From positions 102,300-166,299 of the forward strand of contig DATDPP010000079.1 in the NCBI GenBank assembly GCA_035292685.1: a DNA stretch of 64,000 nucleotides, read 5' to 3'. How positions within the stretch are numbered: position 1 is the stretch's first letter; every line of letters begins with the position of its first letter. Shown here in pieces: positions 14,822 through 22,304 of this stretch. This stretch comes from Acidimicrobiia bacterium (GTDB lineage Bacteria; Actinomycetota; Acidimicrobiia; Spongiisociales; ZC4RG35). The translations under genes and the position numbers were made by a program. The notes beneath the pieces are model-generated. The model did not search any database and was not told the DNA's origin. It worked only from the letters and a program-made list of their open reading frames with translations.

Positions 14822-15241
14822 TCACGTCACAGGTTGCTTGACGATCAGAACATCACAGGTGGCAAGATGGATCGCCCGGTGACTGGTGCTCCCCAGGATC
14901 AGGGCCCCCAACTCGCCGCGCCCCCGGGTGCCCACCACCAGCAACGACGCTCCCACATCGTTGGCGTAGGACACGAGAGTGTCTGGTGGATAGCCTTCGA
15001 GGTCGACCCGTCGTATGTCGACGCCCGCCGCCGCGAGCCTTTCCTCGAGCGGCTCCCAAACCGAGCTGCGATGGCCTTCGGCGATCGCAACGTAATCGAT
15101 TGGCACTTCGACATAGGTGTAGGGCACATGAAAAACGTTGACCACATGGAGCCCGGCCCCCCTCCACTCTGCCTCCTGGATCGCCTTCCCGAGGACTTCC
15201 CCGGCCAGCGGCGACTCGTCCACGCCGACCACAACCACCAC
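14822..15241 (-). CDS. universal stress protein (UspA family)
   Basis: VVVGVDESP...LLVVGTRGRGELGALILGSTSHRAIHLATCDVLIV matches the USP ATP-binding pattern. Confidence 0.9.
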   Translation of the reverse strand: MVVVVGVDESPLAGEVLGKAIQEAEWRGAGLHVVNVFHVPYTYVEVPIDYVAIAEGHRSSVWEPLEERLAAAGVDIRRVDLEGYPPDTLVSYANDVGASLLVVGTRGRGELGALILGSTSHRAIHLATCDVLIVKQPVT

Positions 15242-15402
15242 AAAGGACCTCCTTCTGGGTCGTTACCAAGATTGCCAAAGCCATGTCAACGCGTATACGG
15301 CCAGAAGTCCTACTCCCGGGGCCGTTCTGCCTTGTTCGTTGTCGAAGGTCCACCGGCCGACGTTGGGCTCCAGTTCTTCCAACGCAGCCTTGCCGGCACA
15401 GA

Positions 15403-15418
15403 TTGGGACATTCGACCC
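15403..15418. promoter_or_regulatory. candidate operator: imperfect palindrome TTGGGAC-ATTC-GACCC in the divergent usp/hsp20 intergenic region
   Basis: A GGGAC-N4-G.CCC core resembles the DosR/DevR-type box (TTSGGGACTWWAGTCCCSAA). I count 12 of 20 matches by eye. No cognate regulator is in the window. Confidence 0.25.
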
Positions 15419-15521
15419 TGGTCAATGGGTCTTCGAAGTCGGATCATCGTTCTAGAAACCCATGCTGGCTCGGGCCGCCTGCAGCAACAAAGGGTCAGGC
15501 TCGAGAAAGGAGGTGAACCAC

Positions 15522-15956
15522 ATGGAGCTCAAGGTGTGGACACCGTTCTTCGATCTCGACAAGGAGTGGCGGTTGTTTGATTTCCCCCGATTCATCGAGG
15601 GGCATGAGTTCGCATTTCGACCCTCGATCGATGTCGCCAGGCGGAACGGAGACATGCTTGTCATCGCCGAACTTCCGGGCATCGACCCGGAGAAGGACGT
15701 CGAAATCTCAATTGAAGGGGACTACCTCTTCATAAAGGGTGAGAAGTCGATGGAGATGGACATCTCCGAAGACAACCGGTACGTCCACGAGAGAACATAC
15801 GGGAAGTTCCTGCGTCGCATCCCGCTCCCGGCTGGAGTTGACCCCGATAACGTGACTGCCGACTATGACAATGGCGTCCTTACCGTCAAGGTGACCCTTC
15901 CAAGGGAGGGAACGACCCAGGTGCACAACATCCCCGTTGAGGTAAAGACATCCTGA
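15522..15956 (+). CDS. Hsp20/alpha-crystallin family small heat-shock protein
   Basis: ATG 15522 follows GAAAGGAGG. The alpha-crystallin core reads DMLVIAELPGIDPEKDVEISIEGDYLFIKGEK...GVLTVKV. Confidence 0.9.
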   Translation: MELKVWTPFFDLDKEWRLFDFPRFIEGHEFAFRPSIDVARRNGDMLVIAELPGIDPEKDVEISIEGDYLFIKGEKSMEMDISEDNRYVHERTYGKFLRRIPLPAGVDPDNVTADYDNGVLTVKVTLPREGTTQVHNIPVEVKTS

Positions 15957-15973
15957 TCGACGGTTGGGATGAA

Positions 15974-16003
15974 GTGAGGCGAACCTGAAAAGGTTCGCCT
16001 CAC
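15974..16003. terminator. bidirectional stem-loop terminator (GTGAGGCGAACC-tgaaaa-GGTTCGCCTCAC)
   Basis: Perfect 12-bp stem between convergent hsp20 and the DUF1918 gene. Confidence 0.6.
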
Positions 16004-16064
16004 CCTCGTCTTGGCCTCCCCCTCTTGACCGCTTATCGCGCCGGCGAGGCTTCTTCGAGAAGGG

Positions 16065-16277
16065 TCAGGAGGTCTTCTTCGTCCTCTTCCTCGGTGCAAC
16101 GCGCACCATGGCATCGCTCCCGGGAAAGACGAGGGTTTCCCGCTCCTCGTCGGACCACCGAACCAGGAACGGTGGCTCTCCACCTTCCCCGTGCACCTCG
16201 ATGATCTCGCCCTCTTTCTCGATATCGCCAACGTGGTGACCTTGAATAACAAGATGGTCGCCGGGCTTGGCATGCAT
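16065..16277 (-). CDS. DUF1918 domain protein
   Basis: MHAKPGDHLVIQGHHVG...GEIIEVHGEGGEPPFLVRWSD...VFPGSDA pattern. An internal ATG at 16277 was preferred to the Arg-rich extension of ORF 16065..16373. Confidence 0.7.
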   Translation of the reverse strand: MHAKPGDHLVIQGHHVGDIEKEGEIIEVHGEGGEPPFLVRWSDEERETLVFPGSDAMVRVAPRKRTKKTS

Positions 16278-16506
16278 CAGGACTCCCTTCGAGTTCAATG
16301 CCAGCATCCGACTTCGCATCGTGTGCTCATAGAGGCAAAAGGCCCGTCGGCGGCGGAACCCACCCGGTCGCACTCGATACTGACTTCCGGCCCTGGCGCC
16401 GACGCCTCACATCTCGTATCTGTGGTGCCACAAAGGCAATCGGGTCCGATAACGGTTTTGACGCCGGGTACCGACCCGCAAACGTCGCAGCGCCCAGGAG
16501 GCCGAG

Positions 16507-19002: not shown

Positions 19003-20208
19003 TCAGGTCGGCGGCAAGAGCAAGGTCACCCCAAACAGGCCGACGTCGTCTCCACCTCGATCCCAACCCCCTCTGATCGTGGCGCGGCAGCTGGCGAAAC
19101 CGGTCTGTTCGATGCTGTCGGCAATCCGATCATCGAAGCGCAGCTCGCCTTCACCGAGAAACCCGACCTGGAAGTCATCGATCCACACCTCCACGCCCTC
19201 ACCCTCTATGGGAACCAGATCCGCCACAGTCTCGACCTCCACACCACCAAACCGGCGTCGCCCTCCGGTCAATCGAAGAAGCTCGTCCTGGTGGAAGGAC
19301 TCTCCGACGACCGCCACCGCCTCTTCTCCTTCGAGAGTGACCATCTGCCGGTGACCCACGTGACCCCGCATCCGGCTGCGGGCAGTACTTGGGCTTGGGA
19401 TGCCGAGATGGCGCAGAAGACGCCTGCTGCCTCCCCCCATCCGGCAGGCGAAGCAATACCAGCGACAACCGACGGCGTCGATGTGCAGAGACGGATGATG
19501 ATCGTCGTGGAACGGACACAGGTAATAGGAGTCACCTGGAGCCACATCGACTCCGGCCCGCAGCCACAGGTCGCGGAATTCCTCCTGTTCGAGTGCGGTG
19601 CGGGCCAGCCGCTCGGCCTGCGCGTGCTGCCCGCCACCCGGGCCCACGGCGATTCGGCTCACCCACTCAGGCAGGGGAGCCGGTTCCTGCACGGGCTCGA
19701 GCCAGCGGTACGTCTCTCCGGAGTAGTGCCGGCTGGGTGGGGCGACGATCAACCCTCTCTCCGCCTTGAGCTCCAACCCGGCCCCCAACTCGACTGAAGG
19801 AATGTCCTCCTGTTCGATGGTGAACCAGATATGCCGTCCACCGCCACCGGTGCGACTCTCCAGGGTCAGGGGCAGCGGACCCGAGATGGCCTCCAGCTCG
19901 TCGAGGGTGGCGTCTCCTTCGTGGCGCGGGTCCACGTCGATGACCGCCACCCCGGAGACAGCCCCGGTCGCAACACCGACGTTGGCATCCGGCCAGCGCT
20001 CCCACCATTGCCCGACCTGGTCGGCTCCCGGCGCCGTGGTCATCGCCTCTTCCCATTTGACCCGAGGATGCTTCCCCGGTGACGGGCAATCAACTCGCCG
20101 ACAGCTGCATCCGTTTCGACGCATGGAGTGCATCGGGATCACCGACCAGCCACGCCGGAAATAGGATATTGCGGATTCGGCGTTGGGCGGTCGTGGTTGG
20201 GTGGTCAT
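19003..20208 (-). CDS. bifunctional primase-polymerase (AEP/Prim-Pol) fused to a CHC2 zinc finger and a HIRAN-like C-terminal domain
   Basis: Prim-Pol motifs VAVIDVDPRHEG, GGGGRHIWF and IVAPPSRH. CHC2 finger CPFHDDHHPSLHIDAVGCRWYCFACRMGG. The C-terminal VAVVGESFHQDELLRL...VGFL pattern is HIRAN-like. Confidence 0.8.
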   Translation of the reverse strand: MTTQPRPPNAESAISYFRRGWSVIPMHSMRRNGCSCRRVDCPSPGKHPRVKWEEAMTTAPGADQVGQWWERWPDANVGVATGAVSGVAVIDVDPRHEGDATLDELEAISGPLPLTLESRTGGGGRHIWFTIEQEDIPSVELGAGLELKAERGLIVAPPSRHYSGETYRWLEPVQEPAPLPEWVSRIAVGPGGGQHAQAERLARTALEQEEFRDLWLRAGVDVAPGDSYYLCPFHDDHHPSLHIDAVGCRWYCFACRMGGGSRRLLRHLGIPSPSTARSRMRGHVGHRQMVTLEGEEAVAVVGESFHQDELLRLTGGRRRFGGVEVETVADLVPIEGEGVEVWIDDFQVGFLGEGELRFDDRIADSIEQTGFASCRATIRGGWDRGGDDVGLFGVTLLLPPT

Positions 20209-20226
20209 GCGCCCGCCCCTCGGCCC

Positions 20227-21369
20227 TCACCAAGTTGGAAAGCGAAGCGTGGCGGCGACCAGATCATGGGCGAGGCTGGTTGGGGCGAAGACGTGCTCAA
20301 CCGATCCGCCGGCGTCGACCACCGACCGGGAAATCGTCTCGAGTAGCTCGGGAACGCCTACCGCCTCACCTCCACATCCGGTACAAACCGTGACAGCCAG
20401 GGAAAGCGCCCCACAGTTGTTGCACAGTGATCCTCCGAGTGACGCCCCGTCATGCACGAGAAGGCGGGACACCGCATGCCGGTTCACTGCCCTCAACACC
20501 CACTCGATGCCGACGACGGCCAGGTCTCCTTCGGCGGCAGCCGCATATGTCTGCTCGACCTCACCAGCCTCCTCCCTACGTTCGAAGGCCTCTTCGAGCT
20601 CAGCTACCTTCGCGGCGAGAATGGCCGGCGTGAGCGTGTTCATGTCGATCACGAACGTCTCCGTCATCGCCCGCACCGTCTTGTCGAGGAATGGAAGCAG
20701 TGCCCGTGTGATCTCGTCCTGGCCTCCCACGAGGACCAGGTCGAGACCGGTATCCCGGCGCAGACGGTTGAGGTGCTCGGCGACCTCCCGGAACAGGTGG
20801 TTGCGGGCCTCTTCGGCATGCTGTCGATGCCGTCGCTCCTCCAACCCGTGCCAGCCGGCCAGATCGGACTTCCTCAATTCCTCGCCCTCGATGAGCTCTC
20901 TATCGACGCCCTCGCCCATGTAGAAGGTGGCGATTTCGGCGTCCCGGCCGTCCAGAACCACTGCGGCCACCTTTCGGTACTCGTCGAGCAAGGCCTGGAG
21001 CGGACGCAGATACGGCTGTGGCCCGGCAACGGCGCAGTCCCACACCCTTCTGGGCATGGTCATGTGTTCCTCGAGCCGGAGCCGGTCACAGACAAACACT
21101 GCCACCCCGTGGCCCAGTTCCTTCACGAACTCGGGTGTCATCTCGAGCACCCGGTTGACGCCGTTGCGAAGCGACATCGACGACTCGTGATCCAGGTCAC
21201 CCGAGGCGGCAAGCTTCTCGATCGGGTCGAGCAGATCACGGAGGCGGGCGCCGATCGAACGCCTCTCGATTCGGTCCGGCGCCAGGTTGAGATACACGGA
21301 CAGAATCGGAAGCGATGGGCTCTCGACGAGCCGCAACCGATCCATCGCCTCCTGCAACTGATAGGCCAC
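20227..21369 (-). CDS. bacterial archaeo-eukaryotic release factor-like protein (eRF1/Pelota fold, baeRF1 family) with a zinc-ribbon insert
   Basis: KSDLAGWHGLEERRHRQHAEEARNHLFREVAE aligns by eye to the eRF1 GGQ region ([28 protein letters not shown]). LVLVGGQDE central-domain pattern. C-terminal CNNCG...CTGCGG ribbon. Confidence 0.7.
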   Translation of the reverse strand: MAYQLQEAMDRLRLVESPSLPILSVYLNLAPDRIERRSIGARLRDLLDPIEKLAASGDLDHESSMSLRNGVNRVLEMTPEFVKELGHGVAVFVCDRLRLEEHMTMPRRVWDCAVAGPQPYLRPLQALLDEYRKVAAVVLDGRDAEIATFYMGEGVDRELIEGEELRKSDLAGWHGLEERRHRQHAEEARNHLFREVAEHLNRLRRDTGLDLVLVGGQDEITRALLPFLDKTVRAMTETFVIDMNTLTPAILAAKVAELEEAFERREEAGEVEQTYAAAAEGDLAVVGIEWVLRAVNRHAVSRLLVHDGASLGGSLCNNCGALSLAVTVCTGCGGEAVGVPELLETISRSVVDAGGSVEHVFAPTSLAHDLVAATLRFPTW

Positions 21370-21551
21370 TTCCTACCTTCCTTCGTGGCGAACGGAAGAG
21401 GCTCCACCATGAACGTAAGGCGATCCGGGGGCCTCGGGAAGGGCCGTTGGTCACTACTTGAATGACTCGGGTTGGCTGATCCGACTCTCCGACGATGGGT
21501 AGCCTGCCCGCGCTAGGGAGGGCGTCCGGACAGGAATCAGAGGAGCCCCAG

Positions 21552-22304
21552 ATGAGTGAATTCGCGGGACTGCGGGCCGCGGTCACCGGCGGTGCGAGCG
21601 GGATCGGGGCCGCCACGACGCGCCTGCTGGCAGAGCGCGGCGCCAGGGTGGCGGTGCTGGACATCCAGGCACCGGCGGAATTGGTGCCCCAATCGATATC
21701 GATCACGTGCGACGTCACGAGCACTGCTGGAGTTGCCGCGGCCATGCACATCATCGAGACAGACTTTGGGGGGCTTGACGTCCTGGTCAACAACGCCGGC
21801 ATGGGGGCCCGGGGCGACGTCACCGCTCAGGATGCCGACACCTGGCACCACCTCCTCGACGTCAATGTGGTTGGCATGGCGCGAGTGACCTCGGCTGCGC
21901 TTCCGATGCTCCGCCGGTCGGCGCACGCCGCCATCGTCAACACCTGCTCCGCGGTCGCCGTGCTCGGAGTCCCCGACCGAGCGCTCTATGCAGCCAGTAA
22001 GGGTGCCGTCCTCTCCCTCACGCTGGCCATGGCCGCCGATCACATCGGCGAGGGGATCCGGGTCAACGCGGTGGCCCCCGGCACCACCGATACCCCCTGG
22101 GTCCAGAGATTCCTCGCCGCCGCCGACGACCCGGTTGCCGTCATAGAGGAGCTTCGCCGCCGTCAGCCGTTGGGCCGGCTGGTGACGGCCGACGAGGTCG
22201 CCCACGCCATCGCCTATCTCGCCAGCCCTCTTTCCGGCTCAACTACCGGCTCCATCCTGGGTGTGGACGGCGGGATGGTGACGTTGCGCATCCCCTCGCC
22301 TTGA
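21552..22304 (+). CDS. SDR-family oxidoreductase
   Basis: AAVTGGASGIGAAT Rossmann motif, NNAG, YAASKGAV catalytic motif. ATG 21552 follows AGAGGAG. Confidence 0.85.
   Translation: MSEFAGLRAAVTGGASGIGAATTRLLAERGARVAVLDIQAPAELVPQSISITCDVTSTAGVAAAMHIIETDFGGLDVLVNNAGMGARGDVTAQDADTWHHLLDVNVVGMARVTSAALPMLRRSAHAAIVNTCSAVAVLGVPDRALYAASKGAVLSLTLAMAADHIGEGIRVNAVAPGTTDTPWVQRFLAAADDPVAVIEELRRRQPLGRLVTADEVAHAIAYLASPLSGSTTGSILGVDGGMVTLRIPSP

What the first reader, a model, noticed from the sequence alone, without database searches (positions are those of the whole stretch)
20227..21369. eRF1-like protein with a diverged GGQ loop (AGW) and a CxxC...CxxC ribbon
The segment RKSDLAGWHGLEERRHRQHAEEARNHLFREVAE lines up with the eukaryotic eRF1 segment [30 protein letters not shown]. 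However, the catalytic GGQ is replaced by AGW. A zinc ribbon (CNNCG...CTGCGG) is inserted in the C-terminal domain. This argues for a ribosome- or tRNA-binding protein whose chemistry differs from peptidyl-tRNA hydrolysis. An eRF1-like protein (Rv2629) belongs to the M. tuberculosis DosR regulon, but its function is unknown.
Basis: partly seen in the sequence, partly recalled or inferred. Interest (0 to 1): 0.6.

Follow-up and report, generated by a model that had tools for sequence, protein, structure and literature searches.

The report
Balon-type eRF1-like ribosome factor
This gene encodes a bacterial relative of the archaeal/eukaryotic release factor eRF1 in which tryptophan replaces the catalytic glutamine; it belongs to the Balon family, shown in 2024 to park in the ribosomal A site and put ribosomes to sleep, so it is a fairly ordinary new member of a known family.

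Summary
The ORF at 20227-21369 (minus strand, 380 aa) is real and conserved. Profile alignment to two archaeal aRF1 structures puts A171-G172-W173 exactly on G-G-Q. A CxxC...CxxC ribbon (C316/C319/C329/C332) sits in the C-terminal domain.

The protein passes Pfam baeRF_family10. Its confident AlphaFold model matches ribosome-bound Balon hibernation factors best (Msmeg1130, Rv2629, Psychrobacter Balon; TM 0.64-0.73), ahead of aRF1/eRF1 and Pelota.

Neither feature is a local oddity. Among 154 diverse representatives, Trp (114) or Phe (19) fills the catalytic-Gln position, and all four cysteine positions are conserved in 122-136. The ribbon occupies the ancestral aeRF1 zinc-ribbon site, where Balon has its EF-Tu-binding beta-hairpin.

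The most likely role is a non-catalytic A-site blocker for translation shutdown under stress. This is inferred, not shown.

Local points of interest:
- The genus has lost HPF/RaiA and keeps a second paralog.
- The gene lies in a PrimPol-baeRF-SDR indel block.
- A conserved 18-bp box, unique in the genome, precedes it.
- It is probably co-transcribed with PrimPol.

Verdict: new member of a known kind, modest interest.

The parts
20227..21369 (-). Gene for a 380-aa three-domain bacterial aeRF1-superfamily protein (Pfam baeRF_family10; Balon-type)
   Evidence: ORF. PF18854 scores 72.9 bits against a cut-off of 27.1. 78 homologs of about 380 aa. AlphaFold pLDDT 86.7, pTM 0.75. Foldseek top hits are Balon structures.
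20836..20889 (-). M-domain loop EGEELRKSDLAGWHGLEE. A171-G172-W173 (20851-20859) stands in place of GGQ, followed by the 3-residue insert H-G-L and by E177-E178 where short-loop relatives and aRF1 have S-Q
   Evidence: The loop has low pLDDT (62-64) and precedes helix 174-207.
20374..20424 (-). Cys4 zinc-ribbon knuckles CNNC...CTGC (C316, C319, C329, C332) inserted in the C-terminal domain at the ancestral aeRF1 ZnR site, which is also the Balon beta-hairpin site
   Evidence: Invariant in 20 orthologs. Present in 122-136 of 154 representatives. Aligns to CSDCG of aRF1 4af1 and to the Cys-less insert of Msmeg1130/Rv2629. Weak bL32 zinc-ribbon matches. pLDDT about 90.
21437..21454 (-). Conserved 18-bp upstream box GTGACCAACGGCCCTTCC (core GKGAC-N4-GRCCC); probable operator or promoter element
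   Evidence: Nearly invariant in 11-12 ortholog loci with different upstream neighbours. Unique in the genome at high score: 31.4 against 20.3 for the next hit.
21412..21417 (-). TACGTT, a TAnnnT-type -10-like hexamer 19 nt downstream of the box
   Evidence: T, A and C are near-invariant and the last T is invariant in the alignment of 11 upstream regions. The strict sigma-70 consensus scan found nothing.
21375..21383 (-). Shine-Dalgarno GAAGGAAGG ahead of the GTG start codon
   Evidence: The equivalent purine tract is conserved in orthologs.
19003..20208 (-). Downstream PrimPol + CHC2 zinc-finger gene, probably co-transcribed (18-nt gap with GAGGGG, no terminator). Linkage recurs but is not obligatory
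   Evidence: Pfam PF09250 at 1.8e-40 and PF01807. Junction. Adjacent in 4 of about 17 ortholog loci, in two gene orders. Absent or unlinked elsewhere.

Best explanation
The gene encodes a Balon-type member of the bacterial aeRF1 (baeRF-1, family 10) clade: a tRNA-shaped, three-domain protein that occupies the ribosomal A site without catalysing peptide release. Shown here: the fold, the homology, the loss of GGQ and NIKS, the conserved basic helix after the loop, the Cys4 ribbon at the EF-Tu-facing insertion site, and the presence of normal RF1/RF2. Inferred from the characterised relatives Rv2629, Msmeg1130 and Psychrobacter Balon: under starvation or stress the protein binds vacant or translating ribosomes independently of mRNA. 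Its N domain contacts the decoding centre. [quoted passage not shown] There the invariant Gly-Trp cannot position the hydrolytic water as Gln does, and the aromatic side chain probably stacks on an rRNA or tRNA base near A2602/CCA. The zinc ribbon takes the place of Balon's beta-hairpin as the contact for EF-Tu(GDP). The outcome would be reversible translation shutdown and ribosome protection. The genus lacks HPF/RaiA, so this protein and its contig-60 paralog may be its main hibernation factors.
For: - PF18854 scores 72.9 bits against a 27.1 cut-off. The best NCBIfam hits are the Rv2629 and MSMEG_1130 ribosome-hibernation-factor models.
- Profile search against the PDB: Msmeg1130 3e-26, Rv2629 1e-21, aRF1 1e-14, Pelota 9e-13.
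- AlphaFold pLDDT 86.7. Foldseek TM 0.69-0.73 to 8v9j/8v9l, 0.64-0.66 to 8v9k and 0.65-0.70 to 8rdv/8rdw/8rd8, against about 0.5 for eRF1/aRF1.
- All three published Balon hallmarks are at least partly met: no NIKS (AASG at that site), no GGQ (AGW), and an insertion in the C domain.
- The loop shares Rv2629's long form: AGW-HGL-EE here, AGW-NGY-GD in Rv2629.
- Basic residues after the loop are conserved (R180 in 107 and H184 in 100 of 154).
- RF1, RF2 and an ArfB-like protein are present, so this is not the primary terminator.
- Context: orthologs lie next to RtcA and a tandem HPF-C-domain protein in 4 loci. USP, Hsp20 and DUF1918 lie 4-6 kb away in the window. These are the kinds of neighbours reported for Balon genes (PMC10901736; bioRxiv 10.1101/2025.11.04.686544).
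- HPF is absent from 13 of 14 genus genomes but present in 25 of 26 genera sampled.
Against: - There is no experimental or expression data for this protein or for any Zn-ribbon/GW-type member.
- Scores are far below the NCBIfam equivalog cut-offs (67 against 320 bits; 42 against 480), so it is not an ortholog of a characterised Balon.
- Balon's HP motif could not be located, and no literal H-P occurs in the N domain.
- Close orthologs occur in only 3 of 14 genus genomes, and the gene sits in an indel block, so it is dispensable.
- The HPF-loss correlation (Fisher p = 0.003) rests on essentially one evolutionary event.
- In this genome the stress genes are separated from it by PEP synthase and PrimPol, and they are conserved in G001, which lacks the gene.
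Confidence: 0.7

Rival explanations
1. It is a ribosome rescue or quality-control factor of the Pelota/Dom34 kind. It recognises stalled or damaged ribosomes in the A site and promotes subunit splitting or repair without catalysis, rather than storing idle ribosomes.
For: Pelota structures are significant profile and fold matches (9e-13). Orthologs in four loci sit directly after a YbaK-type tRNA-editing gene and the RNA 3'-phosphate cyclase RtcA, which is an RNA-damage/repair context. Burroughs and Aravind proposed rescue roles for baeRF-1 (PMC6514570). A later preprint notes that a rescue role for Balon is not excluded (10.1101/2024.11.25.625233).
Against: The fold is closer to Balon (TM about 0.7) than to Pelota (TM 0.43 or less). 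TIGR00111 pelota scores 12 bits against a 178 cut-off. No bacterial splitting partner such as ABCE1 is known. The same four loci also carry an HPF-type gene immediately downstream, which points to hibernation.
Confidence: 0.15
2. It is an active but non-canonical peptidyl-tRNA hydrolase, a specialised release factor, that uses another loop residue (for example E178 or a histidine) instead of the GGQ glutamine.
For: Loop length and sequence are tightly conserved (G172 and W173 invariant; E178 invariant and A171 near-invariant in the 20 orthologs). Burroughs and Aravind associate such conservation with catalytically active families, and they singled out family 10 as possibly active.
Against: The catalytic Gln column is Trp or Phe in 133 of 154 representatives. 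The only conserved Gln of short-loop members is the +2 Gln that aRF1 also has, and in this clade it is Glu after a 3-residue insert. The first Gly is Ala here. From established knowledge, substitutions in the eRF1 GGQ glycines or glutamine abolish release. Rv2629, which has the same long AGW loop, inhibits translation and is reported to lack a release motif.
Confidence: 0.05
3. Its function is tied to the co-transcribed PrimPol. The two would form a two-gene module, for example on a mobile element, in a defence system, or linking DNA-damage tolerance to translation arrest.
For: There is an 18-nt gap with an SD-like GAGGGG and no terminator. The two genes are adjacent and co-oriented in 4 of about 17 loci, in two gene orders, and PrimPol divergence tracks baeRF divergence (61/70, 59/58, 82/86 % identity). 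The PrimPol-baeRF-SDR block is an indel relative to genus-mate G001.
Against: Most orthologs have no PrimPol neighbour, including the closest ones at 74-78% identity. PrimPol orthologs in G018 and G025 lie on other contigs than the baeRF gene, and G017, which has a PrimPol ortholog, has no baeRF match. Neither baeRF paralog matches PADLOC or PHROGs. No integrase or other mobility genes were seen. The conserved upstream box stays with baeRF whether or not PrimPol is present.
Confidence: 0.05

Closest known systems
Mycobacterial Balon homologues Msmeg1130 (PDB 8v9j, 8v9l) and Rv2629 (8v9k); NCBIfam NF052288 and NF052289
   Same: Same three-domain fold (TM 0.64-0.73). Full-length profile homology (3e-26, 1e-21). 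No NIKS and no GGQ. An insertion at the same C-domain site. Rv2629 shares the long A-G-W-x-G-aromatic loop. Both are actinobacterial and occur in multiple paralogs per genome.
   Different: Only 18-20% identity, and far below the equivalog cut-offs. This protein keeps an intact Cys4 zinc ribbon where the mycobacterial proteins have a Cys-less insert. Msmeg1130 has AGQ rather than AGW at the loop tip.
Balon of Psychrobacter urativorans (PDB 8rd8, 8rdv, 8rdw; NCBIfam NF052287)
   Same: Fold (TM 0.65-0.70). Loss of the release and decoding motifs. Expected A-site binding.
   Different: Very weak sequence relation (profile E 1.2e-4; 14.6 bits against a 330 cut-off). Balon has a lasso loop, a bL27 trap, an HP motif and a beta-hairpin. 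None of these could be identified by sequence here. Here there is a Gly-Trp loop and a zinc ribbon.
Archaeal aRF1 (A. pernix 3agk, H. salinarum 4af1) and eukaryotic eRF1
   Same: Domain order. The loop-plus-helix segment is nearly collinear (GGW-SQARYQRH in short-loop relatives against GGQ-SQRRYERI). The zinc-ribbon site in the C domain is the same.
   Different: Trp replaces the catalytic Gln. The first Gly is Ala. There is a 3-residue insert. NIKS is absent. TIGR03676 scores 21.9 bits against a 234.7 cut-off. The genome has its own RF1 and RF2.
Pfam PF18854 baeRF_family10 (Burroughs and Aravind 2019, PMC6514570)
   Same: Passes the gathering threshold. Same architecture, with a ZnR or 2-strand insert in the Pelota-like domain.
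   Different: The paper highlights a conserved loop glutamine in family 10. In this derived long-loop clade that column is Glu, and the true GGQ-Gln column is Trp throughout the sampled family.
Pelota/Dom34 and Vms1/VLRF-1
   Same: Same superfamily. Pelota is likewise non-catalytic.
   Different: Lower fold similarity (TM 0.43 or less for Pelota, 0.23 for Vms1). The family models are not met. The N domain is of the eRF1 type.

Membership tests
Balon-type ribosome hibernation factors (Helena-Bueno et al. 2024) | Three-domain aeRF1-like fold similar to ribosome-bound Balon structures | tested here: met
   AlphaFold pLDDT 86.7, pTM 0.75. The Foldseek top ranks are dominated by 8v9j, 8v9l, 8v9k, 8rdv, 8rdw and 8rd8, with TM 0.64-0.73.
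Balon-type ribosome hibernation factors (Helena-Bueno et al. 2024) | No NIKS motif in the N domain | tested here: met
   In the profile alignment to A. pernix aRF1, the NIKL segment aligns with 'aasg' (query LAASGDLDHE).
Balon-type ribosome hibernation factors (Helena-Bueno et al. 2024) | [quoted passage not shown] | tested here: inconclusive
   There is no H-P dipeptide in the N domain. A lower-confidence loop at residues 31-40 exists in the model. The paper gives no residue numbers, and the bridge alignment to Psychrobacter Balon failed.
Balon-type ribosome hibernation factors (Helena-Bueno et al. 2024) | No GGQ in the middle domain | tested here: met
   A-G-W aligns on G-G-Q of two aRF1 structures. 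W173 is invariant in 32 homologs.
Balon-type ribosome hibernation factors (Helena-Bueno et al. 2024) | Characteristic insertion in the EF-Tu-binding C-terminal domain | tested here: met
   The insert at residues 313-339 aligns with the insert of Msmeg1130/Rv2629. Here it is an intact Cys4 zinc ribbon rather than a beta-hairpin.
Balon-type ribosome hibernation factors (Helena-Bueno et al. 2024) | Binds the ribosomal A site, associates with EF-Tu(GDP), inhibits translation | not testable with these tools
   This needs biochemistry or cryo-EM.
NCBIfam equivalogs NF052289 (Rv2629), NF052288 (MSMEG_1130), NF052287 (AOC03_06830) | Whole-protein score above the curated equivalog cut-off | tested here: not met
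   67.3 against 320, 42.5 against 480 and 14.6 against 330 bits. The protein is a distinct subfamily, not an ortholog of a characterised factor.
Pfam PF18854 baeRF_family10 | Score above the gathering threshold | tested here: met
   72.9 bits against 27.1, and 77.4 bits in the genome search.
Pfam PF18854 baeRF_family10 | Well-conserved glutamine in the catalytic loop (as described in PMC6514570) | tested here: not met
   Short-loop members read GGW[SA]Q. In this long-loop clade the Q column is E178, and the catalytic-Q column is W.
Class-I release factor aRF1/eRF1 | GGQ catalytic motif, NIKS-type stop-codon recognition, and the TIGR03676 cut-off | tested here: not met
   AGW stands in place of GGQ and AASG in place of NIKS. 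TIGR03676 scores 21.9 against 234.7 bits. RF1 and RF2 are present in the genome.
Pelota/Dom34 | TIGR00111 cut-off, and Pelota as the closest fold | tested here: not met
   12.3 against 177.65 bits. Pelota structures rank below Balon and eRF1, with TM 0.43 or less.

The most novel reading that the evidence does not exclude
The Gly-Trp/zinc-ribbon branch of baeRF-1 family 10 (at least 1,600 sequence clusters) could be a mechanistically distinct class of A-site factor rather than just another Balon. The invariant aromatic residue at the catalytic-Gln position would insert at the peptidyl-transferase centre and stack on A2602 or the P-site CCA end, actively locking peptidyl-tRNA against hydrolysis. 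The Cys4 ribbon would act as a zinc- or redox-sensitive switch for EF-Tu or ribosome binding. In this HPF-less Acidimicrobiia genus, two such paralogs would be the only hibernation system, driven by a dedicated operator box.
Probability: 0.15. Interest if true: 0.6.

Novelty: new member of a known kind. Interest (0 to 1): 0.3.

Why it matters
On its own, this gene adds an Acidimicrobiia member to a family whose function was established in 2024.

Three details go beyond the published descriptions I could read:
1. The catalytic glutamine is systematically replaced by an aromatic residue (Trp or Phe) across a very large branch of the family. The Balon paper's main text does not mention this.
2. 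That branch keeps the ancestral Cys4 zinc ribbon exactly where characterised Balons carry their EF-Tu-binding hairpin.
3. A whole genus appears to have lost HPF/RaiA while keeping one or two of these proteins. That fits the recent proposal that loss of ancestral hibernation factors goes with reliance on alternative ones.

All three can be tested with ordinary biochemistry. They would show whether Balon-type factors share one mechanism.

Tried and rejected
The register was established from profiles instead.
- The search for related loci failed with the broad alignment and found nothing with the single protein. It worked with the tight ortholog alignment.
- The upstream box as a regulon marker: a genome-wide PWM scan gave only this locus at high score. 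The six weak hits (about 2 expected by chance) are intragenic or lack the promoter layout. Rejected.
- The upstream box as a structured or anti-SD leader RNA: RNAalifold gives only a 5-bp CCUUC/GAAGG helix at -1.2 kcal/mol with no covariation, and the single-sequence fold has z = -1.6. Not supported.
- Defence-system or phage origin: no PADLOC or PHROGs match for either baeRF paralog. PrimPol's defence hits come only from its zinc finger.
- Small ORFs downstream of distant orthologs (P0081, P0082) as conserved partners: they are unrelated to each other, and one has an unlinked homolog on contig 18. Rejected.
- Bridge alignment to Psychrobacter Balon through P0075, to locate the HP motif: only aRF1 was returned.
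- The strict sigma-70 promoter scan found nothing.
- The tree (FastTree) was read only for leaf order. I did not evaluate branch supports, so the claim that the long-loop form is derived and forms one group is provisional.

Full report
**Observation.** The window has an open frame at 20227..21369 on the minus strand. It is 380 aa long, with a GTG start preceded by GAAGGAAGG. The quoted peptide is there: residues 161-178 read EGEELRKSDLAGWHGLEE. The ribbon reads CNNCGALSLAVTVCTGC. A database search found 78 homologs, almost all about 380 aa and from Acidimicrobiia metagenome-assembled genomes, so this is a real, conserved gene.

**Register of the AGW loop.** A profile of 32 homologs, however, matches A. 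pernix aRF1 (1.2e-14) and H. salinarum aRF1 (1.3e-14). In both alignments A-G-W falls on G-G-Q, followed by a 3-residue insert. A short-loop relative aligns to aRF1 without any gap: GGWSQARYQRH against GGQSQRRYERI. The AlphaFold model is confident (pLDDT 86.7, pTM 0.75). It places AGW at the end of a flexible loop immediately before a 34-residue helix, as in eRF1.

**What it is.**
- Pfam: baeRF_family10 at 72.9 bits (cut-off 27.1).
- NCBIfam: the best hits are the Rv2629-family and MSMEG_1130-family ribosome hibernation factor models, but far below their equivalog cut-offs (67 against 320 bits; 42 against 480).
- Profile against the PDB: Msmeg1130 3e-26, Rv2629 1e-21, aRF1 1e-14, Pelota 9e-13, eRF1 7e-7, Psychrobacter Balon 1e-4.
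- Foldseek: the ribosome-bound Balon structures give the highest full-length TM-scores (0.64-0.73). aRF1/eRF1 reach about 0.5 and Pelota 0.43 or less.

The Balon paper shows that Rv2629 and Msmeg1130 bind the A site and inhibit translation about 15-fold (PMC10901736). It lists three shared hallmarks: no NIKS plus an extended decoding-centre loop; no GGQ; and an insertion in the EF-Tu-binding C domain. This protein meets the NIKS, GGQ and insertion criteria. The extended loop / HP motif could not be scored. The protein is therefore a member of the broad Balon / baeRF-1 family, but not an ortholog of any characterised member.

**The two flagged features are family traits.** An exhaustive profile search found 10,659 representative clusters at E <= 1e-3 and 1,643 at E <= 1e-30. 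I aligned 154 sequences: the best full-length representatives from that search plus the window protein, its paralog and the distant homologs P0073-P0078.
- The catalytic-Gln column is Trp in 114 and Phe in 19.
- The preceding Gly is kept in 142.
- The four cysteines are present in 122-136.

Three loop types occur:

| Loop type | Motif | Example |
|---|---|---|
| Short | GGW[SA]Q | P0073-P0078 |
| Long | [AG]GW[YH]GL[ED]E | the window protein |
| Phe | GGF[SG]GY.E | the contig-60 paralog |

In a FastTree leaf order the short form lies nearest aRF1, and the long and Phe forms group together (branch supports not evaluated). Burroughs and Aravind noted a conserved glutamine in family 10. By alignment, that is the +2 Gln that aRF1 also has (GGQ-S-Q), and in this clade it is Glu. 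Rv2629 has the same long-form layout (AGW-NGY-GD). Msmeg1130 has AGQ.

The second CxxC aligns with CSDCG of haloarchaeal aRF1 and with the Cys-less insert of the mycobacterial proteins. The ribbon is therefore the ancestral aeRF1 zinc ribbon, retained, and not a new insertion (PMC6514570).

**Genome context.** The assembly is 2.47 Mb and 97% complete.
- It has RF1, RF2 and an ArfB-like protein.
- A second baeRF paralog lies on contig 60. It is 28% identical, has the same architecture with a ribbon and a GGFGGY loop, and is preceded by a DUF2017 gene.
- Neither HPF domain model finds anything, and tblastn with the HPF-C-domain protein P0080 finds nothing either.
- Among 41 related genomes, HPF is present in 25 of 26 genera but absent from 13 of 14 genomes of this genus.
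- The paralog type is present in 12 of those 14. Close orthologs of the window gene occur in only 3.
- HPF-less genomes carry a baeRF gene in 13 of 14 cases, against 12 of 27 for HPF-bearing genomes (Fisher p = 0.003). This is essentially one evolutionary event.

**Neighbourhood.**
- In genus-mate G001 the PEP synthase gene is followed within about 90 nt by the methyltransferase gene. PrimPol-baeRF-SDR (19003-22304) is therefore an indel block at a conserved site.
- USP, Hsp20 and DUF1918 lie 4-6 kb away, and they are also present in G001.
- In four ortholog loci the gene follows YbaK-like and RtcA genes and precedes a 285-aa protein with tandem HPF C-terminal domains. Those are the translation-dormancy and repair neighbours described for Balon genes.

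**PrimPol.**
- The stop codon is 18 nt from the ATG of a PrimPol + CHC2-finger gene, with GAGGGG between them and no terminator.
- PrimPol is adjacent and co-oriented in 4 of about 17 loci, in two gene orders, and its divergence tracks that of baeRF. That suggests an old linkage with later losses.
- The closest orthologs lack it, however, and in G018 and G025 the two genes are unlinked.
- Neither baeRF paralog matches defence or phage families.

I leave this link unexplained. A shared stationary-phase regulon is one possible reading.

**Upstream element.** Eleven to twelve ortholog loci, with different upstream neighbours, share the following layout:
- an 18-bp box, GTGACCAACGGCCCTTCC;
- a variable 19-20 bp spacer;
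- a TACGNT hexamer;
- a variable leader;
- the Shine-Dalgarno sequence.

The box is unique in this genome at high score, and there is no evidence for an RNA structure. It looks like a dedicated operator or promoter element. Its core, GKGAC-N4-GRCCC, has the 5+4+5 architecture of an imperfect palindrome. From memory this resembles a DosR-type box, but I did not test that.

**Mechanism and verdict.** The most likely role (confidence about 0.7) is a non-catalytic A-site blocker of the Balon kind. In this model the Gly-Trp tip cannot activate water and probably stacks on a base near the peptidyl-transferase centre. The zinc ribbon would provide the EF-Tu contact. These steps are inferred from relatives; nothing was shown for this protein. 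The rivals are a Pelota-like rescue factor (0.15), a non-canonical hydrolase (0.05) and a PrimPol-coupled module (0.05).

Earlier notes from this scan on other genomes reach the same family assignment. I used them as leads only.

The finding is a new member of a known kind. Interest is modest, and is raised slightly by the aromatic-for-Gln rule, the retained zinc ribbon, the HPF-less genus and the conserved operator box.

Noticed in passing
window 21412-21454 (minus strand): An 18-bp box (GTGACCAACGGCCCTTCC) plus a TACGTT hexamer 19 nt downstream is conserved upstream of 11-12 orthologs that have different neighbours. The box is unique in this genome. The regulator is unknown. The core GKGAC-N4-GRCCC is an imperfect palindrome.
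   Followed up: partly
window 19003-20208 (minus strand); L013 6156-7394; L016 3631-4920; L019 3645-4934: A PrimPol + CHC2 zinc-finger gene is adjacent and co-oriented with the baeRF gene in two different gene orders, and its divergence tracks that of baeRF. It is absent from the closest orthologs. The functional link is unexplained.
   Followed up: partly
whole genome G000 and genus-mates G001-G013: Canonical HPF/RaiA (PF02482) is missing from 13 of 14 genomes of this genus but present in 25 of 26 genera sampled in the order. Nearly all genus members keep a GGF-type baeRF paralog.
   Followed up: partly
G000 contig C60:27770-28975 (L002 1084-2289): A second baeRF-1 paralog (401 aa as called, 28% identical) has the loop YGGFGGYDEH and the ribbon CNQCG...CPVC. 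Its start is 4 nt after a DUF2017 gene. This is the copy conserved across the genus.
   Followed up: partly
window 19003-22304 compared with L024 (G001:C3:992000-1009000): PrimPol-baeRF-SDR is an indel block of about 3.3 kb. In G001 the PEP synthase gene is followed within about 90 nt by the methyltransferase gene, whose match there is split into three pieces (a possible frameshift).
   Followed up: yes
window 14822-16373: USP (14822-15241, minus), Hsp20 (15462-15956, plus) and DUF1918 (16065-16373, minus) are clustered next to the PEP synthase gene. The set resembles a dormancy regulon and is conserved in G001 regardless of baeRF.
   Followed up: partly
L004 3575-4432; also L016, L017, L019: A 285-aa protein with two HPF C-terminal (PF16321) stretches and a basic N-terminus lies immediately downstream of baeRF orthologs. 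It is a non-canonical HPF isoform of the kind reported next to Balon genes. G004 C26:19856-20241 carries what looks like a degraded baeRF fragment next to such a gene.
   Followed up: partly
G000 C79:98060-98410 (about 4 kb before the window start): A small (149-aa frame) RF-1-domain protein, ArfB-like, is encoded on the same contig just outside the window.
   Followed up: no
G010 C17:1014-3185: The PEP synthase homolog in genus-mate G010 has 5 in-frame stop codons and is probably a pseudogene.
   Followed up: no
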